Shown here piece by piece: positions 15,491 through 43,247 of a stretch of DNA of 49,179 nt. The first letter of the stretch is position 1; each line of letters starts with the position of its first letter. The notes beneath the pieces were generated by a model. That model was not told the origin of the DNA, made no database searches, and saw only the letters and a list, made by a program, of their open reading frames with translations. This DNA is from a virus (Duplodnaviria > Heunggongvirae > Uroviricota > Caudoviricetes), in IMG/VR virus record IMGVR_UViG_3300021600_000004. One strand, given 5' to 3'. The translations under genes were made by a program, and so were the position numbers.

Positions 15491-15750
15491 GCCAATTCTT
15501 TTACACAAGAAAGACAGATGACAAAAGCTATACAGATAGCTTTAATCTAAACAAAGTGATTAGGTCTGTAGAAATGGAAGACAACAGTCTTTTGATTCTA
15601 TTAGATGATATGCATGAGCGTAGTGAAAATGTTCCAGAAATTGATCCTAAGACTAATAAGATGAAGGGATATAAGAGAGAACGTAAGGTGTATCAATCAG
15701 AGATTACACTAGAGGGTGATGACATTATTAAATTTAGAGCAATCAATTAA
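15487..15750 (+). CDS. hypothetical protein
   Basis: 87 aa ORF with ATGA overlap. Confidence 0.7.
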   Translation: MSQFFYTRKTDDKSYTDSFNLNKVIRSVEMEDNSLLILLDDMHERSENVPEIDPKTNKMKGYKRERKVYQSEITLEGDDIIKFRAIN

Positions 15751-18968: not shown

Positions 18969-19364
18969 TTAACATTTCCATTTACGTAAAGCTAATGTTT
19001 TCCTTGTTGGTTCACCATTAGGTTTCTTTGCAGGTCCTTTAACTCCTGACATCCTAGCACAAAATGATCTTTTTCTAGGACCACCTTCTGGTTGTGGGGC
19101 TTTTAAATGTCCACCAGTTTCTCTATTATATGAAGCTCTTCCTTTAGCATTCAATCCACCTTTTGGATTTTTACCTTCTTTTCTAGTCCAAGCAGGTGTA
19201 GATCCACCATTTTTTAATGTACTTCCTTTAAACTCTCCTTTCTTTTTAACTAAAGGACCATTAGGAACAGGAGTGATACCACCACCATTCTTAAGAACAC
19301 CTTTGCCAACATAAGCTGTTGCTTTCTGTGGATTATAAGGTCCAGGTTTCTTAATACTAGCCAT
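18969..19364 (-). CDS. basic phage protein, C-terminal domain probably DUF6321
   Basis: AWTRKEGKNPKGGLNAKGRASY...RKRSFCARM...ALRKWKC. Confidence 0.7.
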   Translation of the reverse strand: MASIKKPGPYNPQKATAYVGKGVLKNGGGITPVPNGPLVKKKGEFKGSTLKNGGSTPAWTRKEGKNPKGGLNAKGRASYNRETGGHLKAPQPEGGPRKRSFCARMSGVKGPAKKPNGEPTRKTLALRKWKC

Positions 19365-20328
19365 TTACAAAATTTAAAAAGTCTGTTGTAAGAGATGTCC
19401 AAGTTGATCCAGCTCTTACTTCTAATGAATTAATATTAATAAATGCAGAATAACCATCATCAGCATTAATAAATGTACCACTGAATAAATATAAATTAGT
19501 TGCAGATCCTAATGCAGGAATAATTGTATTATGTAATATATTATAACTTGCAACTCTTATAAGTTCTGTAGCTTGAATCATATTCTGTGAATATGTATGT
19601 GTATTATAATAAGTATAAGAAGCATAAACAATTAATGCAAGTTGATATCTTTGATAATTGTTTACAAAAGGAGCATTTGTAGCCACTGGTGCAACACCAT
19701 TTAATGTAATTGCATCAGCAATAGCTGTAGCAACAGCTCCACATGTATTATCAGCTGTAGCAGAACTCTTACCTCTTCTTAACATTCTACCTACATTATC
19801 ATTAGCTGCAATAAGGTCAGCTTGTTGTGTAATTCCTATATGAGGCATGTTAATTAATAATAATGGTCCATTTGCATTATCATCTGATGTAGTGTGACTT
19901 TGCCAAGCTTGTGCTCCTAATATACCTGTGTGAGGATATCCAGCAAGTCCACCACCCATAAATGGTCCAAGATAGTTATTTAATGCTGGAGGATTTTGAC
20001 CTATGTTAAATATATTAGCAAACTCAGAAGCATTAACATCATCTGAACAAACTGTAGAATTCAAAACAGTATTATATGCATCAGCACCTAAACCATCAAG
20101 AAAACTTACTAATTTATAAGCAACATTGTTAGCTAATAAAGCATTTGGATATGTAGCATTAACTACCTCACTATAATGTTTAGTAGTTTTATTAAAATAT
20201 TCAATTGGTTGAACTTCCTTCCAAATACCAACAGTAGGAGCATGAGTGTATAAACCAAGACTTCCTGATACTATTTCATTATTTTTTAAAAATCTTGCAT
20301 AAGGTTTTAACTTTGGATTTCTACTCAT
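19357..20328 (-). CDS. LCIB/LCIC-type beta-carbonic anhydrase with N-terminal module shared with the poly-Thr proteins
   Basis: VCSDDVN (Cys, Asp), GGLAGYPHTG, AWQSH, PHIGI (His), GR..R.G, TCGAV (Cys) and G.FIN motifs. Confidence 0.78.
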   Translation of the reverse strand: MSRNPKLKPYARFLKNNEIVSGSLGLYTHAPTVGIWKEVQPIEYFNKTTKHYSEVVNATYPNALLANNVAYKLVSFLDGLGADAYNTVLNSTVCSDDVNASEFANIFNIGQNPPALNNYLGPFMGGGLAGYPHTGILGAQAWQSHTTSDDNANGPLLLINMPHIGITQQADLIAANDNVGRMLRRGKSSATADNTCGAVATAIADAITLNGVAPVATNAPFVNNYQRYQLALIVYASYTYYNTHTYSQNMIQATELIRVASYNILHNTIIPALGSATNLYLFSGTFINADDGYSAFININSLEVRAGSTWTSLTTDFLNFVNG

Positions 20329-21904: not shown

Positions 21905-22108
21905 TTATATAGGCTGTGTAGTAGTTGTTGTAGTTGTGCTTGTACTAGTAGTTGTAGTTGTTGTGTAATTACAACACTCATTTGCATCTATCTCATGCCA
22001 GTTACCAACCTTTGGTTTAAATCTTTGTAGAATTAAACTACCTGCTATGACACGTCCACTACCATCATAACGTACATATGCTTTTAATCTATTATTGCTA
22101 TTTGCCAT
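21905..22108 (-). CDS. small putative virion protein with C-terminal poly-Thr tail
   Basis: LKAYVRYDGSGRVIAGSLIL...PKVGNWHEI..ECCNY followed by a T/S homopolymer tail. Confidence 0.75.
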   Translation of the reverse strand: MANSNNRLKAYVRYDGSGRVIAGSLILQRFKPKVGNWHEIDANECCNYTTTTTTSTSTTTTTTTQPI

Positions 22109-22120
22109 TTTTATTTAATT

Positions 22121-22369
22121 TTAAAGTACAGTTGTTGTTGTTGTAGTGGTAGGAGTAGCAGTTGTGGTAGTGGTTGTTGTTGTACTACTTGTACTACTAG
22201 TTGTAGTGGTTGTTGTAGGAACATAATTGCAGCATTCATAAGCTGGAATTTCTACCCATTTACCCACCTTTGGTTTCTTTCTCCGTAAAATTAGGCTGCT
22301 TGGAACTATTCTTCCAGTACCATCAAAGCGTACATAAGCTTTGAGAGGGCGATTATTATTTTGGGCCAT
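22121..22369 (-). CDS. small putative virion protein with C-terminal poly-Thr tail (paralog of 21905..22108)
   Basis: LKAYVRFDGTGRIVPSSLIL...PKVGKWVEI..ECCNY followed by about 30 T/S residues. Confidence 0.75.
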   Translation of the reverse strand: MAQNNNRPLKAYVRFDGTGRIVPSSLILRRKKPKVGKWVEIPAYECCNYVPTTTTTTSSTSSTTTTTTTTATPTTTTTTTVL

Positions 22370-22371
22370 AA

Positions 22372-23391
22372 TTAGTAATTTAAATTATATTTGTTTTTTA
22401 ATTCAATAAGTTTTGTGACATAGTAATGTGTTCCTCTACCTTTAGCATTTACATCATTAGCCACTGTGAGCATGTGTGTATCTTCAAATGGATCTTTACC
22501 AGTGTGGTAAGCTCCTTTGTAAAAAGCAGGATAACCATCCATATCTCTATCTGTTATACCTGCATTGTGGAACATTCCAAGCTTGTGCACTTTCTCAATA
22601 GGATCTGATGCCCAGGAAAAGTCCATTTCAGGTATATTTTTAGTTTCTTTTTCTCTCAACCAAAGGTTCCATAACACTCCCCACATATCTGCACACCAGC
22701 TTTGAAACCCTTTATTCTCATTTGCGAAATATTGTTTATTTATAGTTTGTAAATACAAACGTATTGTTATACAATCTTTCATCACCTTTTCCCAGAAAGC
22801 ACCATCTACATTCTTTACAAAGTATTGTGCTCCTCCTGAGTTGTTATTGTTAGCCTCAGCTATCTTTCTTGAAATACCAATTTTAGAAGCAAGTTGCTCT
22901 AAAACATCAATCTTTTTATATGCTTGTATCATGTCAGGAAGCACATCCTTTATCTTACTATCAAAGTATGAAGCATTTATGTAGCTATTTGTATCAGAGA
23001 GATAACATGTGTCATCATCTATATAAGCATCTACATTGAATTTATCTGTAAATAATATATCACAATCACAATAGAAGACAGCTTTTGTAGACATTTCAGG
23101 ATTATCCTGGAAGTATCTCATAAGACTGTAAGGACGCAGAACAGGAATATAAGTTCCTAAGAGCTGACTGACCTCCCCCCCATCCTTGTAATAAGCAAAT
23201 TCTGCTTCTGGATAGAGATTTTCAATCTTTTGCCATTTATCACTTTTCTGTCTAAAGCTAGGAGTGTACACAAGTACAATAGCTTTGTCTGAGTGCCCAA
23301 TGTTCTTAAGACTTTCTAACCAAGCATGTACCTGCCAAGTGTAATAAGTATCATCTGGCTGGGCAACTACAAATTTTAATTCTTTACTCAT
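22372..23391 (-). CDS. peptide O-glycosyltransferase, SGT1/HPAT (GT96/GT95)-like
   Basis: YYTWQ, LRPYS, YCDCDILF (DxD), GGAQY and SWCADMW parallel the plant Y..WQ, N(K/R)P, DxD, GGP and W..EMY motifs. Confidence 0.65.
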   Translation of the reverse strand: MSKELKFVVAQPDDTYYTWQVHAWLESLKNIGHSDKAIVLVYTPSFRQKSDKWQKIENLYPEAEFAYYKDGGEVSQLLGTYIPVLRPYSLMRYFQDNPEMSTKAVFYCDCDILFTDKFNVDAYIDDDTCYLSDTNSYINASYFDSKIKDVLPDMIQAYKKIDVLEQLASKIGISRKIAEANNNNSGGAQYFVKNVDGAFWEKVMKDCITIRLYLQTINKQYFANENKGFQSWCADMWGVLWNLWLREKETKNIPEMDFSWASDPIEKVHKLGMFHNAGITDRDMDGYPAFYKGAYHTGKDPFEDTHMLTVANDVNAKGRGTHYYVTKLIELKNKYNLNY

Positions 23392-23402: not shown

Positions 23403-23987
23403 TTATGCTACTTTTTTTCTATCATCTCTTTTAATGATTTCTATAGTATTGGTCTTCCACGTACGTCCATAAATAATGTTTCTTATTATAGAAACGTTAA
23501 TATTCATTATATTAGATATATCTACAATAGTCTTTCCTGAATTATATAGCACTTTTAATTCAGTGACACTTTTGTCTGTAATTTTTGCTTTTACATTATT
23601 TTCACCTGCTCTGCTAGGCTGTAGTCCTAAAGAATAAGCATGTAATTGATTCTCAGAATTGCTCATCCATTCAAGATTACTCACTTTGTTATTTAGCTTA
23701 TTACCATCAATGTGATTAACTTGAGGTTTATTAAAATCATTTGGTATAAAAGCTTTGGCTACTAATCTGTGTATTATTTTAGTAGTGGATTTAGAGTTTT
23801 TATACAAATTTACTTCTAAGTAACCTCGTCTATTTATAAAAGGTTTGAGCAATTTACCATGTATAACTCCACGTCTATCTCCACAAAATCTATCCACACT
23901 TCTTACTTTACCTATGCTATTTACCTGATATCCTTCAAAGTTAGGAACATCTCTCCATTCTTCACAGATAAATTTTAAATCCTTCAT
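23403..23987 (-). mobile_element. free-standing NUMOD4-HNH homing endonuclease gene
   Basis: EEWRDVPNFEGYQVNSIGKVRS (NUMOD4); HRLVAKAFIPN...VNHIDGNKLNN..SNLEW...EN..HA (HNH_3). Confidence 0.9.
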
Positions 23988-24011: not shown

Positions 24012-24170
24012 TTATGGAGTAGCTGTAGTGGTAGTGGTTGTAGTGGTTAATCCTGCAGTGTTTTTAACTACAGCTCCCACTTGTCCAATCAATTGCTCCA
24101 TCTGCTTTGATATATTCCACAAAAGTTGTGATTGTGGATCTTGCCCTATGGGCCTTGAAGGTATTGCCAT
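24012..24170 (-). CDS. small protein with C-terminal poly-Thr tail (52 aa)
   Basis: Read manually: MAIPSRPIGQDPQSQLLWNISKQMEQLIGQVGAVVKNTAGLTTTTTTTTATP*. Confidence 0.75.
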   Translation of the reverse strand: MAIPSRPIGQDPQSQLLWNISKQMEQLIGQVGAVVKNTAGLTTTTTTTTATP

Positions 24171-26442: not shown

Positions 26443-26817
26443 TTAATATGTATCATATGACTTCTCTTCTACAAACTGAGAACCATAAGCTATATTAATC
26501 TTTTTCTTAATATCAGCTCTTTTATCATTCAATATGTATACAAATCTGGCTAATTCAATGAATTCATTATTAAATAGTTTATCTTTTTCATGGATTCTAA
26601 GACTATTTTCTATGTTCCATAAGTCTTTATTTACATCAAGAAGACTTGTTACTAGTTCATCTTCCAGATCTATACCAAATTCAAGAACTTTTCCTAACAG
26701 ATAACCTAGTTCTTTTGTAACATTCTTTAACTTATCCTCATCTGTTATTCTTTCACTTTTAATAGTTAAGATGGTGAACTTGTCTACTATCTCTCCTATA
26801 CTCACTTCTATTTTCAT
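26443..26817 (-). CDS. DUF6165-like protein (commonly associated with glycosyltransferase genes)
   Basis: EVSIGEIVDKFTIL.IK...I, LW..E..LR, FIELAR.VY..ND.R...K..IN...GS..VEEKSY; start at the second Met. Confidence 0.75.
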   Translation of the reverse strand: MKIEVSIGEIVDKFTILTIKSERITDEDKLKNVTKELGYLLGKVLEFGIDLEDELVTSLLDVNKDLWNIENSLRIHEKDKLFNNEFIELARFVYILNDKRADIKKKINIAYGSQFVEEKSYDTY

Positions 26818-26825
26818 AATGTTTT

Positions 26826-26863
26826 TTTGCAAATATACCTAATCTTTCTTAAATTTGTACAAA
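26826..26863. promoter_or_regulatory. overlapping divergent Bacteroidota-type promoters
   Basis: Plus strand: TTTG(26826)-N20-TAAATTTG(26850-57). Minus strand: TTTG(26860-63)-N22-TATATTTG(26830-37). Confidence 0.65.
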
Positions 26864-26871
26864 ATAATTGT

Positions 26872-29800
26872 ATGCCTACTAGTTATAAATTCTTTAAAAA
26901 TGAGGTGAAGGAATGGTTCAAGAATAATGTTCCTGCTAATACAAGGATATTAGATGTAGGTGCTGGAGAAGGTACATATGGTAAGTTGTTAGAACATCTT
27001 GAATATGACATAGATGCTCTTGAGATATGGGCTCCTTATATTGATCAATATGAATTGTGGAATTATTATGGTGTTATTCATGATGGAGACATACGTACAT
27101 TTGATTATTCTAATTATAATTTTATCATCCTGGGAGATGTGTTAGAACATTTAACAGCTGAGGAAGGACAGAAGCTTATACAAGATGTGAAGAATGCTGG
27201 GAAGCAATGTTTGGTTGCTATTCCTTATCAAATGGAACAAGGAACATATGAGGGTAATATATATGAAACTCATCTACAACCAGATTTGACAACAGAGGTG
27301 ATGAGTGAACGCTATCCCACATTAGAACTCCTCTATGGAAATATGTTTTATGGATATTACATAGAAAGAAAGATGATTGATAAAGCTTTTGTACTATATG
27401 CTACAGAGGCTTATTATGATATTGTAACAGCTTGTGTAAACTCTCTAGTTACATTTAGTAAACATCCAGTGTTTGTATACATGCTCAACTCTGATGCAAA
27501 GATACATAAAGCCACTACCATCAGATGGGATTGTAATATCAAAGAGATAGAATATAATACCAAGGATCAATTTTATATTAATAGAACAGATGATAGGATT
27601 TATAACATCCTTATAGAGCGTCCAATGATTGTTAAAGACTGTCTTAAATATGCTAATACAGTGGCTTATGTAGATAGTGATAGTGTAGCTACACCACTAG
27701 TAGATAGAATATTTGACTTCTCTATTACTGACTATCCACTATTTGTAGATAGTATATATGATGTCATGATGTTAGATGGGAAAGCCAATCTCGAGCTTCC
27801 AGCTTGTGAGTTCTTTGATGTAGAAAGAGGTTCTTACAGACAAACAGGATATTTTATAGCTAATCAGGATTGTGTACCATTTTTAGATGAGTGGTATTGG
27901 ATGTGTACTCATCCTACAATTAAAAAAGATTTTAAACTCTATGCTCCCTTTCATGAAGAAACTATTGCAAATGTTCTCTTGTGGAAAAATGGACATATAG
28001 ATTGTCTACCATATTTATATACTAATGCCAGTCTTGATATTCTTAATAACATAGATGAATATGAATTTGATAAGGAACATTGGCAGTGGTTTAAACTTCC
28101 TAAGAAAGAAAATCTATTGTTCTATCATGGAGAAAAGAGACCAGATGTTATGTACAAGATGATTGATAAGCTTAAAGACAAAAAGCTAAATATAATGTTT
28201 TTAGCTCCACATCTATCCACAGGAGGAATGCCTGCTTTCCTTCAGAAAACTGTAGAGGTGCTACAGAATTACGTACAAATAAGTGTAATTGAATATCAAT
28301 GTCATAGCTTAGACTATGTTGTACAGCGTAATGCTATTAAAGAACTAGTAGATGTATATACATTATATGAGAACAAAATGGAACTATTTGATCTCATCTA
28401 TCATATTCAACCAGACATTATTCATATACATGAGCCAGCTGAAAGATTTGATAGAGAAATGATTACAGAACTATACAATCCTAATAGAACTTATAGGATT
28501 GTAGAAACCTGTCATGATGTAAGCTTTAATCCTAATGAAAAGATATTTCATCCTGATGCATATGCTTTCTGTACACCATATCATCTAAAGACATTTGCTA
28601 ACTTACCATCATATAAAGAGGTGATTGAGTTTCCTATAGAGAACAATGTTGTATCTGATATAATTAAACATAAAGCAAAGGTTAAATTAGGATTTAGTTT
28701 AGTTAGGACTAATGTATTGAATGTAGGACTGTGGACACAAGGTAAGAATCAGGGAGAAGGACTTGAGATAGCTCGTAACTATCCTGATATGAATTTTCAT
28801 TTTGTAGGTAACCAAGCTGTTAATTTCAAATACTACTGGGAACCATTAATGAAAGACCTACCACCTAATGTAACCATATGGGGAGAAAGAGCTGATATAC
28901 AGCTATTTATGCAGGCTACTGATATATTTATGTTCAATAGCACATGGGAATGTAATCCTCTAGTTCTTAGAGAAGCTATTGGTTATGGCTTACCTATTGT
29001 AGCTAGAAACCTAGAGCAGTATGAAAATATGTTTACTGACTACATACAGCCTATAGATACAAACTTACATGATATAAAAGCTACATATAGTATCCCAAAT
29101 CAATTAGATGATTATACAAATGCCTATAAAAACTTTTATAACACTGTAATGAACATTCCTCTTCAGGAACAAAGAGTGGATATTACACAGCATTTTGTTA
29201 TTCAACCTTTTCTAGAAATAAAAGGAGTGAGTAGTAGTCTGTTTAAAATTTGTTTTTATGAAGAAAATAGTAGTCTTTCTACTGAATTTAATATAAAAAT
29301 AAACCATTGGGTTAAATTAAATAGAGAGTATTATACCAAATGGACAACAAAGGTTTGGCAAGATGATAAGCTTATATACAATTATATATTAGATTATACA
29401 GGTAAGACAGTGTTTATAAATTTTGATAGTGAGAGTCTTGGAGATACACTAGCTTGGATACCTTATTGCTTAGAGTTTAAAAAGAAACATAATTGTATAG
29501 TGATTGTGTCCACTTTTTGGAATAAAATACTGGACTATCCTGAGCTTGAATTTGTAGAACCAGGATCTACAATAAATACATATGGACAATATATTCTTGG
29601 TTGGAGATATAATAGTAATAAAGAACCAACATTACCAAATACTATTCCACTTCAACAAGCAGCTACTAACATCTTAGGTCTTGATTTTCAAGAGATTAGA
29701 CCTAATATAAAGTTTGATCGTGGTAATAATAAGTATGGTAGGTATGTTACAATAGCTACCAATTCTACCAGTGGATGTAAGTTCTGGACCAGAGAAGGTT

Positions 29801-30228
29801 GGCAGGAAGTGATTAACTATCTACATGATAAAGGATATCAAATTATCAATGTATCCAAAGAGAATAATCCATTTGATAATTGCATTAAGATAGATGATAC
29901 AAGCATTGAGAACACCATGAGTGTAATCTATCACAGTGAATTTTTTATAGGACTTAGTTCAGGGCTTAGCTGGTTAGCTTGGGCTGTAGGAACAAAGGTG
30001 GTAATGATCTCTAATTTTACCAACAAGGACCATGAGTTTCAATCTAATTGTATTAGAATTACAGATGAAAGTTTATGTCATGGATGTTGGAACAATCCTA
30101 ATTTCAAATTTGATAAAGGAGATTGGGATTGGTGTCCTATTAATAAAAATACCCCTAAACATTTTGAATGTCATAGGGGTATTAAAGCAAGTAGAGTGAT
30201 TAATGAACTATTTAAACTCGTTAGCTAA
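26872..30228 (+). CDS. four-domain enzyme: SAM methyltransferase + GT-A glycosyltransferase + GT4-like GT-B + Aah/TibC-type protein O-heptosyltransferase
   Basis: ILDVGAGEG/GDVLEH; AYVDSD, HEET; LSTGG, KNQ, STWECNPLVLREA; SLGDTLAW.PY, FIGLSSGLSWLAW, CHGCWN...CP...FEC. ATG at 26872. Confidence 0.85.
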   Translation: MPTSYKFFKNEVKEWFKNNVPANTRILDVGAGEGTYGKLLEHLEYDIDALEIWAPYIDQYELWNYYGVIHDGDIRTFDYSNYNFIILGDVLEHLTAEEGQKLIQDVKNAGKQCLVAIPYQMEQGTYEGNIYETHLQPDLTTEVMSERYPTLELLYGNMFYGYYIERKMIDKAFVLYATEAYYDIVTACVNSLVTFSKHPVFVYMLNSDAKIHKATTIRWDCNIKEIEYNTKDQFYINRTDDRIYNILIERPMIVKDCLKYANTVAYVDSDSVATPLVDRIFDFSITDYPLFVDSIYDVMMLDGKANLELPACEFFDVERGSYRQTGYFIANQDCVPFLDEWYWMCTHPTIKKDFKLYAPFHEETIANVLLWKNGHIDCLPYLYTNASLDILNNIDEYEFDKEHWQWFKLPKKENLLFYHGEKRPDVMYKMIDKLKDKKLNIMFLAPHLSTGGMPAFLQKTVEVLQNYVQISVIEYQCHSLDYVVQRNAIKELVDVYTLYENKMELFDLIYHIQPDIIHIHEPAERFDREMITELYNPNRTYRIVETCHDVSFNPNEKIFHPDAYAFCTPYHLKTFANLPSYKEVIEFPIENNVVSDIIKHKAKVKLGFSLVRTNVLNVGLWTQGKNQGEGLEIARNYPDMNFHFVGNQAVNFKYYWEPLMKDLPPNVTIWGERADIQLFMQATDIFMFNSTWECNPLVLREAIGYGLPIVARNLEQYENMFTDYIQPIDTNLHDIKATYSIPNQLDDYTNAYKNFYNTVMNIPLQEQRVDITQHFVIQPFLEIKGVSSSLFKICFYEENSSLSTEFNIKINHWVKLNREYYTKWTTKVWQDDKLIYNYILDYTGKTVFINFDSESLGDTLAWIPYCLEFKKKHNCIVIVSTFWNKILDYPELEFVEPGSTINTYGQYILGWRYNSNKEPTLPNTIPLQQAATNILGLDFQEIRPNIKFDRGNNKYGRYVTIATNSTSGCKFWTREGWQEVINYLHDKGYQIINVSKENNPFDNCIKIDDTSIENTMSVIYHSEFFIGLSSGLSWLAWAVGTKVVMISNFTNKDHEFQSNCIRITDESLCHGCWNNPNFKFDKGDWDWCPINKNTPKHFECHRGIKASRVINELFKLVS

Positions 30229-30543
30229 ATCAACAATAGCTTGAGAGATAACTCCCCATTTCATACCTTTTAAAAGCTCTTTTAAATCATTGTAATCAGC
30301 ATCTTCAAGAGAAAGTTCTGCTGTTATAGCTAAAGAGTTTTCAAGATCAGCTTCTTTTATTGAGAATGTTTCTTTATGAGCATCTAATTTCTCAAGAAGT
30401 CTTAACCTTTTAATCATTTCATCTACATTAAAACCACCCTCTTTTGGGTTGTTTATTGTTGATTTAAGTAGATCATATGTAGTTAAGATTGTATCTCTAC
30501 CACCAATGTTTTCTTTAATCACCTTTAATTTAACTGTTTTCAT
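30208..30543 (-). CDS. hypothetical protein (possible fibre chaperone)
   Basis: 111 aa ORF downstream of a consensus promoter and the fibre genes. Confidence 0.65.
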   Translation of the reverse strand: MKTVKLKVIKENIGGRDTILTTYDLLKSTINNPKEGGFNVDEMIKRLRLLEKLDAHKETFSIKEADLENSLAITAELSLEDADYNDLKELLKGMKWGVISQAIVDLANEFK

Positions 30544-30598: not shown

Positions 30599-30979
30599 TT
30601 AAATAGTAGTAGTAGTGGTGGTTAATGGTTCTTCAGTGGTGGTGGTAGTTGTTGTTGTTTCCACTGGAGCTTCAGTTGTTGTGGTTGTTGTACTTGGTAC
30701 TGGTGGTACATAATCTCCTGTAATAGTAAGATTTAATTGTTCTGCTACCCAATCCCAAGCATAATTATCTGTCTGCCATTGTGTATAAGCATCGCCTGTC
30801 ATTGTTAAATTTCCTTGTGCTAATGTGGTGGAAATATTACCATCTGCTGTTTCTGCTAATAAACCATACCAAAAGGTAGCTGATGTATTTAATGTTACAT
30901 TAATCGCATAAGTATTTAATACTTTAGCTTCGTCAATTTGACCATTGTTCCAAATTGATACTGTTTCGATTGTTTTCAT
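30599..30979 (-). CDS. putative virion/fibre-associated protein with mucin-like T/P/E tail
   Basis: Globular N-terminus then PPVPSTTTTTTEAPVETTTTTTTTEEPLTTTTTTI; directly follows the fibre gene. Confidence 0.75.
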   Translation of the reverse strand: MKTIETVSIWNNGQIDEAKVLNTYAINVTLNTSATFWYGLLAETADGNISTTLAQGNLTMTGDAYTQWQTDNYAWDWVAEQLNLTITGDYVPPVPSTTTTTTEAPVETTTTTTTTEEPLTTTTTTI

Positions 30980-30993: not shown

Positions 30994-33900
30994 TTATGGT
31001 GAAGTTGAAAGTAAGTTAATATAATAATCTGTTCCGTCAATATTTACTGTCCAATATCCTGCTGCCGTTACTGCTAGACCTGCTTGTCTTGCTCCAAACT
31101 TCATTGCTCCTGCTAGTGCTGTTGTAGGTGCTGCTGTTTTTATTGTACTTGAGAATGTAGCTGCTCCTGTTGAGGCTAAACTAAATCTTGTTGTTCCACC
31201 TATTGCAAAACTAAAACCAGCATATGTTCCTGAATTTGTAAATAAAATATTATTTGTTTGTACAAAAATACCTAAATCACTATCAATTCCATTACCGCAT
31301 CCAAATGCTTGTCCGTTAGTAGTCCTACCTACATAAATACCTGAAGTAGAAATATTACCTGTTGCCGTTACACTACTAGAGAATGTAGCTGCTCCTGTGG
31401 ATGCTATGGTAAGAGCACTTATTGAATTTGTACCAATAACTAATGATGAATTTTGTTCATTCATTAATGCAAAATTATCACCACCTCCATTTGGATAACC
31501 AAAATAACCCCTTCTTGTTGTACCATTTGAAGCATACCAAGTTTGAAATTGAGCATTGGTACTTAATTGTGTAGATTGTAAAAAATTACCATTAACATTA
31601 TAAATTGTTAAATTCCCACTAAACCTTCCTGTACCATTAACATCTAGCTTATAGCCTGCGTCTGTGGTAGTATTTATTCCAACATTATTTGATTGTGATA
31701 TTGATATTACTGATGTAGTTCCTCTTCTAAAATCCCATCTAATACCTCCTACATCAAAATAATTACTTATTCTTAATCCATTTGTATTATCTGAAAATTG
31801 TGCAAAGTCTGTAAAAGCATTTACTGTTTCTGCTTTTACTACACTAAAAATAGTATTTGGACTTGTTGTTCCTATACCTACGTTAGAACTATTAGTAATA
31901 TAAATAGCAGGTGTATTCCAAGTAATTGCACCTCCTGCAGTTCCTGTCGGAGCAGTTCTTAATCCTATTGTTCCTTGATTACCATCTATATATATTTGAC
32001 CTGCATAATTACTTACTTTATATGTAGATGAATACCAATCTCCATCTATGTTTGCAGACATTGCTAATTGTGGAACACCTGCCGCAATTCTTGATTGAAT
32101 ATTAACTCCATTTGGCAAACTTAATATAGTATTATTTGGAGAAGTACCAAAACTTCCACCTATACCCAAATCGCTTGTAAAAAATCCTGTACCTGATACT
32201 TGTAATTTATAGCCTGCATCGGTTGTAGTTCCTACAAGTAAATTACCACCACTTGTTAAGGTCATTGCTTGGATAAAGGTTATAGCGTTACCTGCCGTTC
32301 CTGAAGGAGCAACTGACCAACGATGAGTTGTATCCATTTCATACCTTGTAGCAGGATTAGTAGCAATATATTCATATTGACCTAATGATGAATAATAAAA
32401 ATTACTTCCAATTTTTAAAGAAGGTCCATTATTTTGAAAAGCAACAACTGAACCTTGTGGTCCTTGTATTACATTAAAAATAGTATTCCACGCACTCGGT
32501 GTAACTCCTAATCCTAAATTGCCTGTTGTTGTTAAGGTCATATTTGTACTTGCACTTGCAGAAAAGTTTAAATTTCTATATGCAGGAGTTGTTCCACCAT
32601 AACTAATAATATCAGTTGTTGTTGCGTTAGTTTGAAAAATTAATCCAGATGTTGGACCATCAAATCTTGTATTATTTCCATTTGCAGAAACTACTACATT
32701 TAATTTATCACTAGGAGTAGCATTACCTATACCAACATTAGTACCATTATCAAAGATTTGACTATTACCTATTGTACTTGCACCTGTAAATTTAGGTAGG
32801 TAGTTAGTAGTACCACTTCCTGTAATTGCACCACTACCAATTGCTTGAGTAGATAGCACCCCACTTGCATCAGCAACAACCATTCTTGTTCCTGTACCTG
32901 CAAGATTAGATAATGTAGCTGCTCCTGTGGAGGCTATGGTAAGAGCAGTTATACCTGTAATAAATTTTAAAGAACTTGTAGTATAATCCGATTGAATATA
33001 ATTAGTTCCATTAGTAGTTGTAAAAGCAATAGAAGGAGAAACCGCTCCATTAGCCTCAAGATAAAGAATAACATTTTGAGCAGCCTTAAACCTTCCTGTA
33101 CCATTTACATCTAGTTTGTAGCCTGCATCACTAGAATTTCCGTTTATGCTTACATTCTTGGTAGAACCAAAAACACGCATTGCCTCTACCCCATTAATAC
33201 CAAATAAGATATTACTTGTTCCTTGTGCTGAAATGGCAAAATCACCTGCAACTGAATTTGTTACAAAGTTATTTGAAGCTGTAGCTAAACCAAATTTTGC
33301 TTGATAAGTAGCACCTGTTAATGCATCAGCTAAAGAAACTGAAGGAGCAGGTCCTGCTATTAATAATTGGTTATCAGCAGTGGCAGAATAAATATTAAAT
33401 GCCCTAACCACTGTTGCACTTCCAACTGTTACACCACTACCATTATCAAATAATAAACTATTACCTATTGTTGTTCCACTACCTGTAAATTTAGCAACAT
33501 AATTAAGTGTGCCACTAAATTGTGCATTGGTTCCACTTGTACCTGACGTACCACTGGTGCCAGAAGTTCCACTTGTGCCTGAACTACCACTGGTTCCTGT
33601 AGTTCCTGAAGAACCACTAGAGCCTGTTGTACCAGAGGTTCCTGTAGTACCAGAGGTGCCACTTGTAGCTGATGTACCACTAGAGCCTGATGTTCCTGTG
33701 GTTCCTGATGTACCACCTGTTCCATTGGTTCCACTTGTACCACTTGTTCCTGTTGTTCCAGAAGTTCCTGTTGTTCCAGAAGTTCCAGAAGAACCACTAG
33801 TACCTGTTGTTCCAGAAGTTCCACTAGAACCACTAAGACCACTAGATCCACTTGTACCAGTGGTACCAGATGTTCCTGATGTACCACTAGTTCCATTTAT

Positions 33901-36900
33901 ACCAGAGCTACCTGATGTACCATTTATTCCTGAAGTTCCTGAAGAACCTGATGTTCCATTAATACCACTTGTGCCAGAAGTTCCTGTTGTACCAGATGTA
34001 CCATTTATTCCTGATGAACCAGAAGTACCAGATGTTCCACTTATTCCTGAAGTTCCTGAAGTTCCTGTAGAACCTGAAGTTCCTGATGTTCCATTAATAC
34101 CACTAGATCCACTTGTACCTGTAGTACCTGATGTACCACTAGTGGCAGATGTACCTGAAGATCCTGAAGTACCTGTTGTACCTGATGTTCCCCCTGTACC
34201 ATTAGTGCCACTAGTTCCAGACGTTCCTGAAGATCCAGAGGTTCCACTAGTACCTGTTGTACCAGATGTTCCATTAATACCACTTGTGCCTGATGTAGCT
34301 GAAGAACCACTAGATCCTGAAGTTCCTGATGTACCATTTATTCCTGATGAACCTGATGTTCCTGTTGTTCCACTAGTACCACTTGTTCCACCTGTACCAT
34401 TAGTACCAGATGTTCCTGATGTAGCTGATGTTCCACTAGAACCAGATGTGCCAGTTGTACCACTAGTTCCACTTGTTGCAGAAGTTCCAGAGCTACCACT
34501 TGTACCTGTTGTACCTGAAGATCCACTAGAACCTGTAGTGCCACTTGTACCTGATGTACCTCCTGTACCATTGGTAGCAGAAGTTCCACTAGATCCTGAT
34601 GAACCACTTGTACCTGTTGTTCCACTTGTGCCTGTTGTTCCACTAGAACCACTCACCCCACTACTACCGCTAGTTCCTGTAGAGCCAGATGTACCACTTG
34701 AGCCACTAGTTCCACCAACACCAGAAGTACCAGAAGTACCACTAGTACCAGAAGGAGCTGTGAATGTAGTTTGTACATAAGAATAGTAAGAACCATCTTC
34801 TGTATAGAAAGTTATTGTGTGAGATTGATTAGAAGTATTGGTTGCCCATAATTCTATATATATTCTATCTGTTGAAAGTAAAACTTGAGCTGCTATAAAT
34901 GTATCATAGAAAAATTGTTGTACAAGTGTACTATAAGACACTGGAACTAAGTTTGTTGTTCCTAATAATGTACTTACACCACCTATGCTATATTTATAAA
35001 CCTTACCATAAACATTGAATGATGAATTACTATTTTGTATTGTAAAATGAGTAGTAAATCCCCAGTTACCTCCTGAAAGACTTGTTAATCCTGGTACACC
35101 GCCATCTGTGATATATGTATTTATAATACTAGATGCACCACTTGCAATAGTTGAAGTAACAGTTTGAGTTGTTGTACTTGTTGGTGTTGGTGATAATTGC
35201 CTATCTGTATTTACTGCAGGACTTGCTGCCACTGATTCATTAATCCAATATACTTGACCTCCAGATATACCATTGATACCTGAAGTACCTGCTGTTCCGC
35301 TTGTACCACTTGTGCCTGTTGTTCCACTAGAACCAGAGGTTCCTGTAGTACCACTGCTACCACTAGTTCCTGTTGAACCACTAGTACCTGATGTAGCACT
35401 TGTTCCTGATGTACCAGCAGTACCACTTGTACCACCAGTTCCATTAGTTCCACTTGTTCCTGAGCTTCCACTAGTTCCTGTTGAGCCTGATGTTCCTGTT
35501 GTGCCACTAGTACCACTAGAGCCAGATGTACCGCTTGTTCCACTAGTTCCTGTTGTTCCACTTGAACCACTAGAGCCTGTTGTACCTGATGTGCCAGAAG
35601 TTCCTCCTGTACCATCAGTTCCACTTGTTCCACTAGTACCACTAGTTCCTGAAGAACCTGAAGTGCCAGTTGTACCACTACTACCAGATGTTCCACTAGT
35701 AGCAGAAGTTCCACTTGTACCACTTGTTCCCCCTGTTCCATTAGTTCCACTAGAACCTGATGTTCCTGTTGTTCCACTAGTTCCTCCTGTTCCATCAGTT
35801 CCTGATGTTCCACTAGTTCCTGTTGTACCACTTGTTCCACTTGAACCACTAGTACCTGAGCTTCCGCTTGTACCTGTAGTTCCACTTGTAGCACTTGTAC
35901 CACTTGTTCCTGAAGATCCACTAGTGCCACTAGTACCAGAAGTACCACCTGTACCATTTGTACCACTAGTACCTGATGTACCAGTACTTCCACTTGTTCC
36001 AGAAGAACCACTTGTTCCACTAGTACCTCCTGTACCATTAGTACCTGAACTACCACTAGAACCGCTAGTTCCAGTGGTACCAGATGTACCAGTAGTACCT
36101 GATGAACCTGATGAACCTGATGAACCTGATGTACCACCAGTTCCGTTTGTACCACTAGTACCACTTGTTCCACTAGATCCTGATGTGCCACTAGATCCTG
36201 ATGTTCCACTAGAGCCACTAGTACCAGTTGTACCAGAGGTTCCTCCTGTTCCATCAGTACCTGATGTACCTGATGTACCTGTTGTTCCTGCTGTTCCACT
36301 TGATCCTGAAGTTCCACTACTACCACTAGTACCTGTAGTACCTGAGCTTCCACTAGTACCAGATGTTCCTGATGTACCTGTAGTACCAGAAGTTCCTGAA
36401 GAACCTGATGTACCAGAGCTTCCACTTGTACCTGTAGTTCCTGATGTGCCAGTAGTTCCACTAGTTCCAGATGAACCAGTAGTTCCACTAGTTCCTGATG
36501 AACCTGAAGTACCAGAGCTTCCTGAAGTTCCTGTAGTTCCACTAGTTCCAGTTGTACCACTAGTTCCAGTTGTACCACTAGATCCACTGGTTCCATCTAT
36601 TGCACTTGTACCACTGCTTCCACTAGTTCCACTAGTTCCTGTAGTTCCAGAAGAACCACTGGTTCCTGATGTACCTGCTGTACCACTAGAACCTGCTGGG
36701 ATAACCCAACTTCTATTAGCTGCTAAGTTTTGTGTAACACCATTAATTGTTAATGTTCTAGTTGTTGGAACAGGAGTATATCCTAATGCAGATATAATAT
36801 CTAAACTGCCTACAGGAGTAGCTGATGTAACCAACCCTTTGGCATTCACTGAGAATTTTAAGAATGTATTACCACCATATATATTACTATTAACATTTGC

Positions 36901-37530
36901 TAATGTTAGTGTTGTAGGAGAACCTGTTACACCTATTCCTGTTACATCACCTACAAATATAAGTATACCTGAAGGAACTGTTATAGTTACAGGAGTGATG
37001 TTTGTTACAAGTCCTTTTGTATTCACTGTTACTATAGGAACTTGTGTTGCTGTTCCATAAGTACCAGGATTAGGATTTACACTAGCTAGTGTGAATACAC
37101 TAGAACCAGGACCTGTGGCTGTACCATCTCCTGTTAGAGCTGATATATAATTACCAGAAGGTTGATATGGACCAGGATCAAGACTACCATCTCCTTTTAC
37201 AAAATCAGAAGATGTACCACCTGTTGTTATTAATGCACCAGACTCAATAGAATCTGTAATCTTAAATGTATAACCACCACTAAGAATCACTGTGTTCTGC
37301 ATCAAGGTTCCACCTAGTTGTACAGGTAATCCTGGACCAGTTTGTATTATACCATTTTGAAATATATATCCAATGGCAGCATCACCAAACTTAGCATCTA
37401 TTTTTTGTAGAGCAGTTTGGACACTATCATTTGTATTGATACCTGTGTATACTAAGTTAGCACCTTCATAAAATACGCAGGTAGCATTTAGTATCACTGG
37501 ACATGGTTCAACGGAGCAATTAATTTCCAT
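30994..37530 (-). CDS. giant tail-fibre-like protein (2178 aa) with two G-T/S-S/T collagen-like blocks
   Basis: TV...G.VT fibre repeats; GTS blocks; C-terminal repeats DAGYKLDVNGTGRF, NVGIGTTSP and IASTGAATFS typical of Bacteroidota phage fibres. Confidence 0.85.
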   Translation of the reverse strand: MEINCSVEPCPVILNATCVFYEGANLVYTGINTNDSVQTALQKIDAKFGDAAIGYIFQNGIIQTGPGLPVQLGGTLMQNTVILSGGYTFKITDSIESGALITTGGTSSDFVKGDGSLDPGPYQPSGNYISALTGDGTATGPGSSVFTLASVNPNPGTYGTATQVPIVTVNTKGLVTNITPVTITVPSGILIFVGDVTGIGVTGSPTTLTLANVNSNIYGGNTFLKFSVNAKGLVTSATPVGSLDIISALGYTPVPTTRTLTINGVTQNLAANRSWVIPAGSSGTAGTSGTSGSSGTTGTSGTSGSSGTSAIDGTSGSSGTTGTSGTTGTSGTTGTSGSSGTSGSSGTSGTTGSSGTSGTTGTSGTTGTSGSSGTSGSSGTSGTTGTSGTSGTSGSSGTTGTSGSSGTSGSSGTAGTTGTSGTSGTDGTGGTSGTTGTSGSSGTSGSSGTSGSSGTSGTSGTNGTGGTSGSSGSSGSSGTTGTSGTTGTSGSSGSSGTNGTGGTSGTSGSSGTSGSTGTSGTSGTNGTGGTSGTSGTSGSSGTSGTSATSGTTGTSGSSGTSGSSGTSGTTGTSGTSGTDGTGGTSGTTGTSGSSGTNGTGGTSGTSGTSATSGTSGSSGTTGTSGSSGTSGTSGTSGTDGTGGTSGTSGTTGSSGSSGTTGTSGTSGTSGSSGTSGTTGTSGSTGTSGSSGTSGTNGTGGTSGTAGTSGTSATSGTSGSTGTSGSSGTTGTSGSSGTTGTSGTSGTAGTSGINGISGGQVYWINESVAASPAVNTDRQLSPTPTSTTTQTVTSTIASGASSIINTYITDGGVPGLTSLSGGNWGFTTHFTIQNSNSSFNVYGKVYKYSIGGVSTLLGTTNLVPVSYSTLVQQFFYDTFIAAQVLLSTDRIYIELWATNTSNQSHTITFYTEDGSYYSYVQTTFTAPSGTSGTSGTSGVGGTSGSSGTSGSTGTSGSSGVSGSSGTTGTSGTTGTSGSSGSSGTSATNGTGGTSGTSGTTGSSGSSGTTGTSGSSGTSATSGTSGTTGTSGSSGTSATSGTSGTNGTGGTSGTSGTTGTSGSSGINGTSGTSGSSGSSATSGTSGINGTSGTTGTSGTSGSSGTSGTSGTNGTGGTSGTTGTSGSSGTSATSGTSGTTGTSGSSGINGTSGTSGSTGTSGTSGISGTSGTSGSSGINGTSGTTGTSGTSGINGTSGSSGTSGINGTSGSSGINGTSGTSGTSGTTGTSGSSGLSGSSGTSGTTGTSGSSGTSGTTGTSGTTGTSGTSGTNGTGGTSGTTGTSGSSGTSATSGTSGTTGTSGTTGSSGSSGTTGTSGSSGTSGTSGTSGTSGTSGTNAQFSGTLNYVAKFTGSGTTIGNSLLFDNGSGVTVGSATVVRAFNIYSATADNQLLIAGPAPSVSLADALTGATYQAKFGLATASNNFVTNSVAGDFAISAQGTSNILFGINGVEAMRVFGSTKNVSINGNSSDAGYKLDVNGTGRFKAAQNVILYLEANGAVSPSIAFTTTNGTNYIQSDYTTSSLKFITGITALTIASTGAATLSNLAGTGTRMVVADASGVLSTQAIGSGAITGSGTTNYLPKFTGASTIGNSQIFDNGTNVGIGNATPSDKLNVVVSANGNNTRFDGPTSGLIFQTNATTTDIISYGGTTPAYRNLNFSASASTNMTLTTTGNLGLGVTPSAWNTIFNVIQGPQGSVVAFQNNGPSLKIGSNFYYSSLGQYEYIATNPATRYEMDTTHRWSVAPSGTAGNAITFIQAMTLTSGGNLLVGTTTDAGYKLQVSGTGFFTSDLGIGGSFGTSPNNTILSLPNGVNIQSRIAAGVPQLAMSANIDGDWYSSTYKVSNYAGQIYIDGNQGTIGLRTAPTGTAGGAITWNTPAIYITNSSNVGIGTTSPNTIFSVVKAETVNAFTDFAQFSDNTNGLRISNYFDVGGIRWDFRRGTTSVISISQSNNVGINTTTDAGYKLDVNGTGRFSGNLTIYNVNGNFLQSTQLSTNAQFQTWYASNGTTRRGYFGYPNGGGDNFALMNEQNSSLVIGTNSISALTIASTGAATFSSSVTATGNISTSGIYVGRTTNGQAFGCGNGIDSDLGIFVQTNNILFTNSGTYAGFSFAIGGTTRFSLASTGAATFSSTIKTAAPTTALAGAMKFGARQAGLAVTAAGYWTVNIDGTDYYINLLSTSP
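33526..34752 (-). repeat. Gly-X-Y coding repeat block 2 (about 410 aa; GTS/GSS/GTT/GIN/GTN)
   Basis: Direct reading of the translation: Gly every third residue with synonymous codon diversity. Confidence 0.95.
35261..36693 (-). repeat. Gly-X-Y coding repeat block 1 (about 475 aa; GTS/GSS/GTT/GTG)
   Basis: Direct reading of the translation. Confidence 0.95.
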
Positions 37531-43242: not shown

Positions 43243-43247
43243 ATATT

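What the first reader, a model, noticed from the sequence alone, without database searches (positions are those of the whole stretch)
29165..30228. Aah/TibC-type autotransporter heptosyltransferase domain in a phage, next to a Ser/Thr repeat fibre
The C-terminal domain keeps SLGDT.AW.PY, GLSSGLSWLAW and the four-Cys cluster CHGCWN...CP...FEC, which in TibC binds Fe3+ and supports dodecamer assembly. TibC/Aah hyperglycosylate Ser residues of repetitive adhesins using ADP-heptose. No autotransporter is present in this window; the nearest repetitive Ser/Thr target is the fibre 0.8 kb away. Many Bacteroidota LPS cores lack heptose, so the donor sugar may be different, implying a new specificity.
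Basis: partly seen in the sequence, partly recalled or inferred. Interest (0 to 1): 0.85.

Follow-up and report, generated by a model that had tools for sequence, protein, structure and literature searches.

The report
Phage TibC-like enzyme beside collagen-like fibre
A freshwater phage carries, as the last part of a four-enzyme protein, a true structural relative of the bacterial adhesin-glycosylating enzymes TibC/Aah. It belongs to a separate branch that sits next to proline-free Gly-Thr/Ser-Ser collagen-like genes, so it most likely sugar-coats the phage's own fibre, though no experiment has tested this.

Summary
Residues 780-1133 of the 1133-aa ORF 26827..30228(+) score 244-248 bits on TIGR04414 (cut-off 200). 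They match TibC at E 4.7e-44, and the AF2 model (pLDDT 96.6) superposes on TibC at TM 0.91. The catalytic Asp, Thr/Lys, Trp and all four iron-finger Cys are kept.

It is not a classical BAHT:
- The beta-hairpin thumb needed for the TibC dodecamer is deleted.
- The adenine-contacting Arg286 is Thr.
- No autotransporter is present.

A tree of 109 domains splits at 100% support. One clade holds the classical autotransporter-linked enzymes. The other holds this phage, many other phages and diverse bacteria. In unselected loci of 10 kb or more, 19 of 24 members of the second clade lie near a proline-free Gly-[ST]-[ST] collagen-like gene, against 0 of 34 in the first (p = 4.5e-11). Here the fibre (30994..37530, -) lies 766 bp away.

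The argument that Bacteroidota lack heptose is not: the candidate host lineage (Chitinophagaceae, a weak assignment) encodes ADP-heptose synthesis and GT9 genes. The donor stays open because of the Arg286Thr change.

This scan has already reported the same pairing on other DNA, in at least 58 genomes. I found no published description. Verdict: a new variant of a known kind, untested by experiment.

The parts
26872..30228 (+). Four-domain glycosylation enzyme gene. The ORF is open from TTG 26827 (1133 aa); the likely start is ATG 26872 (1118 aa). It is predicted soluble.
   Evidence: ORF list and translation. The highest Kyte-Doolittle 19-residue mean is 1.28, so no membrane segment is predicted. 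The orthologue in the complete phage record G001 is 96% identical.
26920..27225 (+). SAM-dependent methyltransferase domain (aa 32-133)
   Evidence: Pfam MetW 23.9 bits (cut-off 21); Methyltransf_25/23/11 match weakly.
27382..28191 (+). GT-A-fold glycosyltransferase-like domain (aa about 186-455) with an invariant D-x-D (DSD) motif
   Evidence: No Pfam or PDB sequence hit. The AF2 model has pLDDT 88. Foldseek finds GT6/GT8 retaining transferases (alpha-1,3-GalT, ABO GTA/GTB, glycogenin) at E about 2e-7 and TM 0.43-0.51. D98 and D100 are invariant in 23 homologues.
28222..29136 (+). GT4 (GT-B) glycosyltransferase domain (aa about 466-770)
   Evidence: Pfam Glycos_transf_1 35.5 bits and Glyco_trans_1_4 34.9 bits over aa 647-739; phrog_2170 glycosyltransferase over aa 485-747.
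29164..30225 (+). TibC/Aah-type domain (aa 780-1133): N-terminal beta-barrel, GT-B catalytic core and Cys4 finger
   Evidence: TIGR04414 244-248 bits against a cut-off of 200; TibC E 4.7e-44; AF2 pLDDT 96.6; Foldseek TM 0.91 to 4rap.
29443..29445 (+). Codon of Asp873, the equivalent of the TibC catalytic base Asp110
   Evidence: Alignment. Invariant in 151 of 151 and 165 of 165 aligned domains. Role taken from Yao et al. 2014.
29851..29904 (+). Site of the truncated beta-hairpin thumb: 18 residues where TibC has 28; the F265/V266 tip is absent
   Evidence: Alignments. DSSP of the model shows no hairpin here.
29914..29916 (+). Codon of Thr1030, at the position of TibC Arg286 (adenine N1 contact)
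   Evidence: Arg in 46 of 46 classical BAHTs, Thr in 92 of 119 members of this clade. Role.
30076..30171 (+). Cys4 'iron-finger' ligands Cys1084, 1087, 1103 and 1115, plus Phe1113 (the Phe368 equivalent)
   Evidence: They align with TibC Cys339/342/358/370. Each is kept in 146 of 151 domains. Coordinates.
26443..26832 (-). DUF6165 gene, divergently adjacent; a conserved companion of the enzyme gene
   Evidence: Pfam PF19662, E 1.3e-10. A homologue lies in many of the 80 viral loci and next to a stand-alone homologue in L002/L003.
30994..37530 (-). 2178-aa collagen-like tail fibre, convergent with the enzyme gene; the proposed acceptor
   Evidence: PHROG tail-fibre and collagen-like minor-tail families, E 4e-85 to 7e-64. 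It has 286 Gly-X-Y triplets (GTS 141, GSS 58, GTT 40), 852 Ser+Thr and no Pro in the repeats.
35254..36693 (-). Collagen-like block 1 (fibre aa 280-759)
   Evidence: G 0.34, S 0.31, T 0.30, P 0.00.
33526..34749 (-). Collagen-like block 2 (fibre aa 928-1335)
   Evidence: G 0.33, S 0.31, T 0.29, P 0.00.
30599..30979 (-). 126-aa protein ending in three poly-Thr runs, between the fibre and enzyme genes; a second candidate acceptor
   Evidence: Sequence. Homologues, or similar 115-135-aa ORFs with poly-T/S runs, occupy the same place in many related loci.
30208..30543 (-). 111-aa ORF of unknown function whose 3' end overlaps the enzyme gene's 3' end by 21 bp
   Evidence: No family hit. Homologues are present in several related loci.

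Best explanation
The C-terminal 354 residues are an active, cytoplasmic, TibC-fold protein O-glycosyltransferase from a sister clade of the classical autotransporter heptosyltransferases.

Proposed mechanism. During late infection it transfers a first sugar from a host-made nucleotide sugar onto Ser/Thr hydroxyls of the Gly-Thr/Ser-Ser/Thr triplets of the phage's own 2178-aa collagen-like fibre, and possibly onto the neighbouring poly-Thr-tailed protein. ADP-heptose is the default guess for the donor. Asp873 acts as the base, and Thr981/Lys985 hold the beta-phosphate. The three upstream domains of the same polypeptide (GT-A, GT4 and methyltransferase) would extend and cap the glycan. The coat could stabilise or shield a proline-free triple helix.

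Shown here: fold, family, conserved catalytic and Cys4 residues, loss of the thumb, Arg286 to Thr, clade structure and gene linkage.

Inferred: the acceptor, the donor, the order of the domains, the oligomeric state (probably not a dodecamer) and the benefit to the phage.
For: - Family and fold: TIGR04414 244-248 bits against 200; TibC E 4.7e-44; model pLDDT 96.6; TM 0.91 to 4rap/4rb4 against about 0.5 for WaaC/WaaF.
- Catalytic set: the equivalents of Asp110, Thr226, Lys230 and Trp305 are kept and nearly invariant in 151 diverse domains. Their roles come from PMC4358343.
- Cys4 and Phe368 are kept.
- Linkage in phages: 35 of 42 related viral loci with 8 kb or more downstream carry a convergent collagen-like ORF whose X/Y positions are 74-97% Ser/Thr with almost no Pro.
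- Clade test: a 100%-supported split separates the autotransporter-linked clade (0 collagen neighbours) from this clade (49 of 63 rows with one, 0 autotransporter). In unselected loci of 10 kb or more the counts are 19 of 24 against 0 of 34, Fisher p = 4.5e-11, with varying gene order and strand.
- Bacterial members: a stand-alone 377-aa homologue in an Arenicellales chromosome is flanked by three small lipoprotein-like GSS/GTS-repeat proteins.
- Donor supply: the complete relative G001 has no CTP_transf_like, SIS_2, NTP_transferase or Epimerase gene, so the donor must come from the host. The candidate host lineage encodes the ADP-heptose route and GT9 enzymes.
- The protein has no predicted membrane segment.
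Against: - No biochemical data exist for any member of this clade.
- Gene linkage in related phages is largely shared ancestry. The Fisher test is not phylogenetically corrected, and the 27 phage rows in the tree were chosen by me, mostly from loci with a collagen gene.
- Arg286, whose Ala mutant abolished or largely diminished TibC activity, is Thr here, so ADP-heptose use is uncertain.
- The thumb is deleted, and thumb mutants of TibC are inactive dimers. The TibC mechanism, a ring around beta-helical substrates, cannot apply as such.
- A collagen-type chain is a very different acceptor from the strand-loop-strand motif of autotransporters.
- The host assignment rests only on phage contigs binned into a MAG.
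- 5 of 24 clade-2 loci show no collagen-like neighbour within the flank.
Confidence: 0.6

Rival explanations
1. The acceptor is not the collagen-like fibre but the small proteins with C-terminal poly-Thr/Ser tails (30599..30979, 24012..24170, 22121..22369, 21905..22108). These would become a mucin-like coat.
For: A poly-Thr-tailed ORF lies closer to the enzyme gene than the fibre does. Similar 115-135-aa ORFs with poly-T/S runs sit between the enzyme and fibre genes in many related loci. The window also holds other glycosyltransferase candidates (GT2 at 15716, phrog_4417 at 22372) that could serve different acceptors.
Against: Bacterial and distant members of the clade have Gly-[ST]-[ST] repeat neighbours without poly-Thr tails. 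Many phage loci have the collagen gene but no detected poly-T/S ORF. The two acceptors are not mutually exclusive.
Confidence: 0.15
2. The enzyme modifies a host structure, such as the LPS core, another surface glycan or a host protein, to block superinfection or remodel the cell. The linkage to the fibre gene is only synteny.
For: Phage-encoded glycosyltransferases that alter host surface glycans are well known (my own knowledge). The GT9 relatives of this fold act on the LPS core. The gene sits beside the lysis cassette as well as the fibre.
Against: The domain scores 22 bits or less on the LPS heptosyltransferase models against 244 on TIGR04414. Its TM to WaaC is only about 0.5. The link with collagen-like genes also holds in bacterial chromosomes and with changing gene order, which synteny in one phage lineage cannot explain. 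The protein has no membrane segment.
Confidence: 0.1
3. It is a classical BAHT that heptosylates a host autotransporter adhesin.
For: It passes the TIGR04414 equivalog cut-off.
Against: There is no autotransporter in the window or in any locus of its clade. It falls outside the autotransporter-linked clade with 100% support. The thumb and Arg286, invariant in that clade, are missing.
Confidence: 0.02
4. The domain, or the whole fusion protein, glycosylates phage DNA bases to evade restriction, as the T4 glucosyltransferases do.
For: The T4-type DNA glucosyltransferases are also GT-B-fold enzymes (my own knowledge), and the phage has T4-like rIIA/rIIB and UvsX genes.
Against: The closest relatives by sequence and fold are protein O-glycosyltransferases. 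Bacterial members sit beside repeat-protein genes, not DNA-modification genes. I did not look for hypermodified-base synthesis genes.
Confidence: 0.03

Closest known systems
TibC (ETEC H10407) and Aah/AAH (DAEC 2787): bacterial autotransporter heptosyltransferases, BAHT family, TIGR04414, PDB 4rap/4rb4 (Yao et al. 2014, PMC4358343)
   Same: - Same protomer fold: beta-barrel, GT-B core with a reduced N-lobe, and Cys4 finger (TM 0.91).
- The equivalents of Asp110, Thr226, Lys230, Trp305, Phe368 and Cys339/342/358/370 are kept.
- Ser at the Pro300/Ser294 stereoselectivity position, as in AAH.
- Soluble, and acts on a Ser/Thr-rich repetitive surface protein encoded next door.
   Different: - About 30-33% identity, in a separate clade at 100% support.
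- A 10-residue deletion removes the beta-hairpin thumb required for the dodecamer.
- Arg286 is Thr.
- It is fused behind three other enzyme domains.
- The neighbour is a collagen-like Gly-[ST]-[ST] protein, not an autotransporter beta-helix.
- It is encoded by a phage.
LPS core heptosyltransferases WaaC/WaaF/WaaQ (GT9; PDB 2h1h, 1psw)
   Same: GT-B fold, an ADP-heptose-type donor site and a weak Pfam PF01075 match (32 bits).
   Different: TM is only about 0.5. NCBIfam scores are 22 bits or less against cut-offs of 170-467. They have no beta-barrel and no Cys4 finger, and their acceptor is lipid A-Kdo, not a protein.
Mycobacteriophage virion glycosylation (Freeman et al. 2023, Cell Host Microbe; seen only as reference 61 of PMC12801897, content from my own knowledge)
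   Same: Phage-encoded glycosyltransferases O-glycosylate the phage's own virion proteins in the host cytoplasm.
   Different: The enzyme families differ (not TibC-like). The acceptors are C-terminal tails of capsid and tail-tube proteins, not collagen-like fibres. The hosts are Actinobacteria.
Glycosylated collagen-like proteins: Bacillus anthracis BclA (O-glycosylated GXT repeats) and Riftia cuticle collagen (galactosylated Thr stabilises the helix).
   Same: Thr in Gly-X-Y repeats carries O-glycans, which can take the place of hydroxyproline in stabilising the triple helix.
   Different: The transferases are unrelated. These proteins contain Pro, whereas the phage repeats have none.

Membership tests
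BAHT (TibC/Aah; TIGR04414) | Scores above the curated cut-off of the TIGR04414 equivalog model | tested here: met
   244.2 bits (whole protein) and 247.6 bits (domain) against a cut-off of 200; model positions 49-371 of 374.
BAHT (TibC/Aah; TIGR04414) | TibC protomer fold: N-terminal beta-barrel, GT-B core and finger insertion | tested here: met
   AF2 pLDDT 96.6. Foldseek TM 0.91 and rmsd 2.2 A to 4rap over about 369 columns.
BAHT (TibC/Aah; TIGR04414) | Catalytic base Asp110 and donor contacts Thr226, Lys230 and Trp305 | tested here: met
   Asp873, Thr981, Lys985 and Trp1049 align with them.
BAHT (TibC/Aah; TIGR04414) | Arg286 contacting adenine N1 (basis of ADP specificity) | tested here: not met
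   Thr1030 is at this position. It is Arg in 46 of 46 classical members, and Thr in 92 and Arg in 15 of 119 members of this clade.
BAHT (TibC/Aah; TIGR04414) | Four Cys of the iron finger (Cys339/342/358/370) | tested here: met
   Cys1084/1087/1103/1115 align with them. Which metal binds cannot be tested here.
BAHT (TibC/Aah; TIGR04414) | Beta-hairpin thumb with a hydrophobic tip (F265/V266) that builds the dodecamer | tested here: not met
   The region is 18 residues long against 28. The tip columns are gaps in 118 of 119 clade members, and the model has no hairpin there.
BAHT (TibC/Aah; TIGR04414) | Dodecameric ring assembly | not testable with these tools
   The homodimer prediction gave no answer (listed under Tried and rejected). 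SEC-MALS or cryo-EM is needed.
BAHT (TibC/Aah; TIGR04414) | Encoded next to its autotransporter substrate | tested here: not met
   No autotransporter passenger or beta-domain in the window or in any locus of its clade; 17 of 46 classical-clade loci have one.
BAHT (TibC/Aah; TIGR04414) | Uses ADP-heptose as donor | not testable with these tools
   Only indirect evidence. The phage has no sugar-nucleotide genes. The candidate host lineage has rfaE/gmhA homologues. Arg286 is lost.
LPS core heptosyltransferases (GT9: WaaC/WaaF/WaaQ) | Scores above the cut-offs of the NCBIfam heptosyltransferase I/II/III or RfaQ/RfaC models | tested here: not met
   12-22 bits against cut-offs of 170-467. TM is about 0.5.
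Collagen-linked TibC-like clade (proposed here; unnamed) | Falls on the non-autotransporter side of the main split and has a Gly-[ST]-[ST] collagen-like gene nearby | tested here: met
   100% SH-aLRT split. The fibre lies 766 bp downstream with 286 triplets. Clade counts are 19 of 24 against 0 of 34.

The most novel reading that the evidence does not exclude
A widespread, undescribed clade of iron-finger TibC-like transferases in phages and bacteria is dedicated to proline-free Gly-[ST]-[ST] collagen-like repeats. Its members are not dodecameric. O-glycosylation takes the place of hydroxyproline in making these triple helices stable or protease- and receptor-proof. The phage sub-branch, with Arg286 changed to Thr, has moved to a donor other than ADP-heptose.
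Probability: 0.3. Interest if true: 0.8.

Novelty: new variant of a known kind. Interest (0 to 1): 0.64.

Why it matters
TibC/Aah-type protein heptosyltransferases are known only as partners of autotransporter adhesins in Proteobacteria. If this branch glycosylates collagen-like fibres, three things follow:
- The family gains a second kind of acceptor and a viral habitat.
- It would explain how thousands of environmental phages can build long proline-free triple helices.
- Virion glycosylation, shown so far mainly in mycobacteriophages, would become a common feature of aquatic phages, with consequences for host recognition, stability and particle surface chemistry.

The domain is abundant: 1431 clusters at 50% identity (E ≤ 0.001) in the protein library, and 196 viral contigs from a scan for close relatives only. 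A cultured carrier exists (Microcystis phage Mel-JY01), so the idea can be tested directly.

Tried and rejected
- Homodimer prediction (two copies of the domain, alignment A1): no answer. It is evidence neither way.
- Sugar-nucleotide synthesis genes in the complete relative G001 (PF01467, PF13580, PF00483, PF01370): none found, so the phage itself gives no clue to the donor.
- The 'cytidylyltransferase like protein' near the homologue in Mel-JY01: no NCBIfam hit, so it is not an HldE-type enzyme.
- Host by prophage: contig C14 of the Sediminibacterium MAG is collinear with the phage genome over all of its 59 kb. It is a binned phage contig, not an integrated prophage.
- Bacteroidota-type -7 promoter motif TAnnTTTG: 81 matches against 71 +/- 7.7 expected, so not enriched. 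The two copies in the divergent intergenic region may be chance.
- Sequence search of domain 2 against PDB: nothing. Only the fold search placed it.
- Literature searches for heptosyltransferase with phage or collagen-like, and for DUF6165: no relevant paper. The Freeman et al. 2023 paper is not held.
- The collagen-like ORF counted for Mel-JY01 (L084) conflicts with that record's annotation and may be a shadow frame. I do not rely on it.
Full report
**1. What is there**

The finding lies at the 3' end of one long ORF, 26827..30228 on the + strand (1133 aa from a TTG; the probable start is ATG 26872). The quoted start, 29165, is one base out of frame; the domain starts at codon 780 (29164).

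The protein has four modules:
- A SAM methyltransferase, aa 32-133 (MetW 23.9 bits).
- A module without sequence hits, aa about 186-455. Its AF2 model (pLDDT 88) matches GT-A-fold GT6/GT8 transferases (E about 2e-7, TM 0.43-0.51). It carries an invariant D-x-D motif.
- A GT4 domain (Glycos_transf_1 35.5 bits).
- The C-terminal domain in question.

No membrane segment is predicted.

**2. The window is a phage**

It encodes rIIA/rIIB, ribonucleotide reductase, UvsX, an endolysin, an HNH endonuclease and a collagen-like tail fibre. It is 94-96% identical to G001, a complete 113,645-bp virus record with direct terminal repeats. G001 holds a 96% identical orthologue of the enzyme.

**3. Is the domain really TibC/Aah-like?**

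Yes.
- TIGR04414 gives 244.2 bits (247.6 for the domain alone) against a curated cut-off of 200. The LPS heptosyltransferase models give 22 bits or less.
- phmmer against PDB finds TibC at E 4.7e-44.
- An AF2 model built on 82 homologues has pLDDT 96.6. It superposes on TibC 4rap/4rb4 with TM 0.91 and rmsd 2.2 A over about 369 columns, including the N-terminal beta-barrel. WaaC and WaaF reach only TM about 0.5.

I mapped residues with the structural paper (PMC4358343) and an E. coli plasmid BAHT whose numbering equals TibC's.

| TibC residue | Role | In this protein |
|---|---|---|
| Asp110 | catalytic base | Asp873, kept |
| Thr226, Lys230 | beta-phosphate contacts | Thr981, Lys985, kept |
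| Trp305 | heptose O4 contact | Trp1049, kept |
| Phe368 | near the thumb tip | Phe1113, kept |
| Cys339/342/358/370 | iron ligands | Cys1084/1087/1103/1115, kept |
| Pro300 | stereoselectivity position | Ser, as in AAH |

These residues are nearly invariant across 151 diverse domains.

**4. Where it departs from TibC**

There are two departures, and both are systematic.
- Arg286 contacts adenine N1, and its Ala mutant abolished or largely diminished TibC activity. It is Arg in 46 of 46 classical BAHTs. It is Thr here, and Thr in 92 of 119 members of this protein's clade.
- The beta-hairpin thumb is cut from 28 to 18 residues. The tip columns are gaps in 118 of 119 clade members, and the model shows no hairpin there.

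**5. Distribution**

The domain is common, and usually fused to other domains.
- 2715 proteins match at E <= 1e-10 in the 90%-identity collection.
- 1431 clusters at 50% identity match at E <= 0.001, mostly 600-2000-aa multidomain proteins.
- A pattern scan of IMG/VR found 196 viral contigs.
- In the phage record collection, three huge uncultured phages and the cultured Microcystis phage Mel-JY01 carry it (317 bits on TIGR04414).

In the 80 viral loci retrieved, the gene is almost always a fusion: MT+GT-A+GT4+TibC-like, GT-A+GT4+TibC-like or GT4+TibC-like. A DUF6165 gene is often beside it, as here.

**6. The acceptor**

The 'Ser/Thr repeat fibre' is a proline-free collagen-like protein. It has two blocks, fibre aa 280-759 and 928-1335, with 286 Gly-X-Y triplets: GTS 141, GSS 58, GTT 40.

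Among related viral loci with at least 8 kb downstream, 35 of 42 carry a convergent collagen-like ORF. Its X/Y positions are 74-97% Ser/Thr, with almost no Pro.

That could be plain synteny, so I looked further out. I scanned one genome per prokaryotic species and scored neighbours in the 80 loci found. A tree of 109 domains splits with 100% SH-aLRT support into two clades.
- Clade 1 holds the E. coli plasmid BAHT and Acetobacteraceae, Burkholderiaceae and Selenomonadaceae members. It has 17 autotransporter-passenger neighbours and no collagen-like neighbour.
- Clade 2 holds the window, the phages and scattered bacteria and MAG contigs. 49 of its 63 rows have a collagen-like neighbour, and none has an autotransporter.

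In the unselected loci of 10 kb or more, the counts are 19 of 24 against 0 of 34 (Fisher p = 4.5e-11). The collagen-like gene lies upstream or downstream, on either strand.

In a 5.2-Mb Arenicellales chromosome, a stand-alone 377-aa member is flanked by three small lipoprotein-like proteins made of GSS/GTS/GTG triplets with poly-Asp tails.

This is the main support for the fibre as acceptor. Three caveats apply:
- The test is not phylogenetically corrected.
- I picked the 27 phage rows of the tree myself.
- No biochemistry exists for this clade.

A 126-aa ORF with three poly-Thr runs (30599..30979) lies even closer than the fibre. It has counterparts in many loci, so it may be a second acceptor.

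**7. The donor**

The complete relative G001 has no CTP_transf_like, SIS_2, NTP_transferase or Epimerase gene. The nucleotide sugar must therefore come from the host.

The only host lead is a MAG labelled Sediminibacterium (Chitinophagaceae). It contains an 8-kb contig 93% identical to this locus and a 59-kb contig collinear with G001. These are binned phage contigs, not a prophage, so the assignment is weak. The best cultured-phage hits are also Bacteroidota phages (Chryseobacterium, Maribacter).

The MAG encodes:
- rfaE domain II at 190 bits (cut-off 181.5);
- gmhA at 195.6 bits (cut-off 209);
- rfaE domain I at 328.9 bits (cut-off 345);
- two GT9 genes.

In its family, 27 of 41 sampled genomes pass the rfaE domain II cut-off.

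ADP-heptose is available and is the default donor. The Arg286Thr change keeps another nucleotide possible. I put ADP-heptose at about one in two.

**8. Comparison with what is known, and novelty**

The domain works like TibC/Aah: the same fold and catalytic set, a soluble enzyme, and a repetitive Ser/Thr-rich surface protein encoded next door. It fails three defining features of the classical family: the thumb, Arg286 and the autotransporter partner. It also sits in a separate clade. I file it as a new variant of a known kind.

I found no paper linking heptosyltransferases to phages or to collagen-like proteins, and none mentioning DUF6165. Phage virion glycosylation has a precedent in mycobacteriophages. 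I saw that paper only as a citation, so what I say about it is from my own knowledge.

This scan has already reported the same pairing on other DNA: 65 notes in at least 58 genomes, several with follow-ups that reached the same reading. I treat those as leads, not as support. The tests above were run here.

**9. Verdict**

- Best explanation (confidence about 0.6): a non-dodecameric TibC-like O-glycosyltransferase primes Ser/Thr of the phage's collagen-like fibre, and the fused GT-A, GT4 and methyltransferase domains elaborate the glycan.
- Rivals: poly-Thr proteins as the sole acceptor (0.15), a host surface target (0.1), DNA modification (0.03), a classical BAHT role (0.02).

Noticed in passing
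window 19357-20328 (-): A 323-aa ORF matches Pfam LCIB_C_CA (limiting-CO2-inducible B/C beta-carbonic anhydrase) at E 1.4e-18. This is an unusual gene for a phage, and it sits among late genes.
   Followed up: partly
window 22372-23391 (-): A 339-aa ORF hits phrog_4417 (unknown function, E 1.2e-50) but no Pfam family. Homologues co-occur with the TibC-like gene in about 35 of the 80 viral loci. It may be a further part of the same glycosylation set.
   Followed up: partly
window 21905-22369 and 24012-24170 (-): Three tiny ORFs (67, 82 and 52 aa) end in long poly-Thr/Ser runs. Two share the motif ECCNY just before the run. Similar ORFs recur upstream of the enzyme gene in related loci.
   Followed up: partly
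window 23403-23987 (-): An HNH homing-endonuclease gene (phrog_59, E 4e-48) sits between the phrog_4417 gene and a poly-Thr ORF.
   Followed up: no
window 33509-34780 (+), 35273-37060 (+) and several minus-strand frames: Long ORFs made of PLVPEVP- or QELVE-type repeats overlap the collagen-like blocks in other frames and on the opposite strand. They are shadow frames of the Gly-X-Y repeat, not genes.
   Followed up: yes
window 3799-3925 against G001 ends: The window runs straight across the junction of G001's two ends (G001 positions 1 and 113645 are adjacent in the window). This fits terminal repeats or circular permutation of the phage genome.
   Followed up: partly
G002 contigs C14 (59,453 bp) and C43 (8,059 bp = L087): A public MAG labelled Sediminibacterium contains at least two contigs that are phage DNA of this lineage. 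C14 is collinear with G001 positions 20.8-81 kb. This is MAG contamination, or a hint at the host.
   Followed up: yes
L104 8438-12508 (Arenicellales chromosome): A stand-alone 377-aa TibC-like gene is flanked by three 137-203-aa lipoprotein-like ORFs. Each has a signal sequence plus Cys, then GSS/GTS/GTG triplets, then a poly-Asp tail. The same layout is seen in L100-L103, L106, L108, L109 and L118.
   Followed up: partly
window 26830-26857: Two copies of the Bacteroidota -7 promoter consensus TAnnTTTG face outwards in the 55-bp gap between the DUF6165 gene and the enzyme gene. The motif is not enriched in the window as a whole, 81 matches against 71 expected.
   Followed up: partly
window 37687-49160 (-): Two giant ORFs (1851 and 1970 aa) upstream of the fibre in the same operon have almost no family hits; one weak match to phrog_21376. 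They are not Ser/Thr-rich (0.12) and have no Gly-X-Y runs.
   Followed up: no
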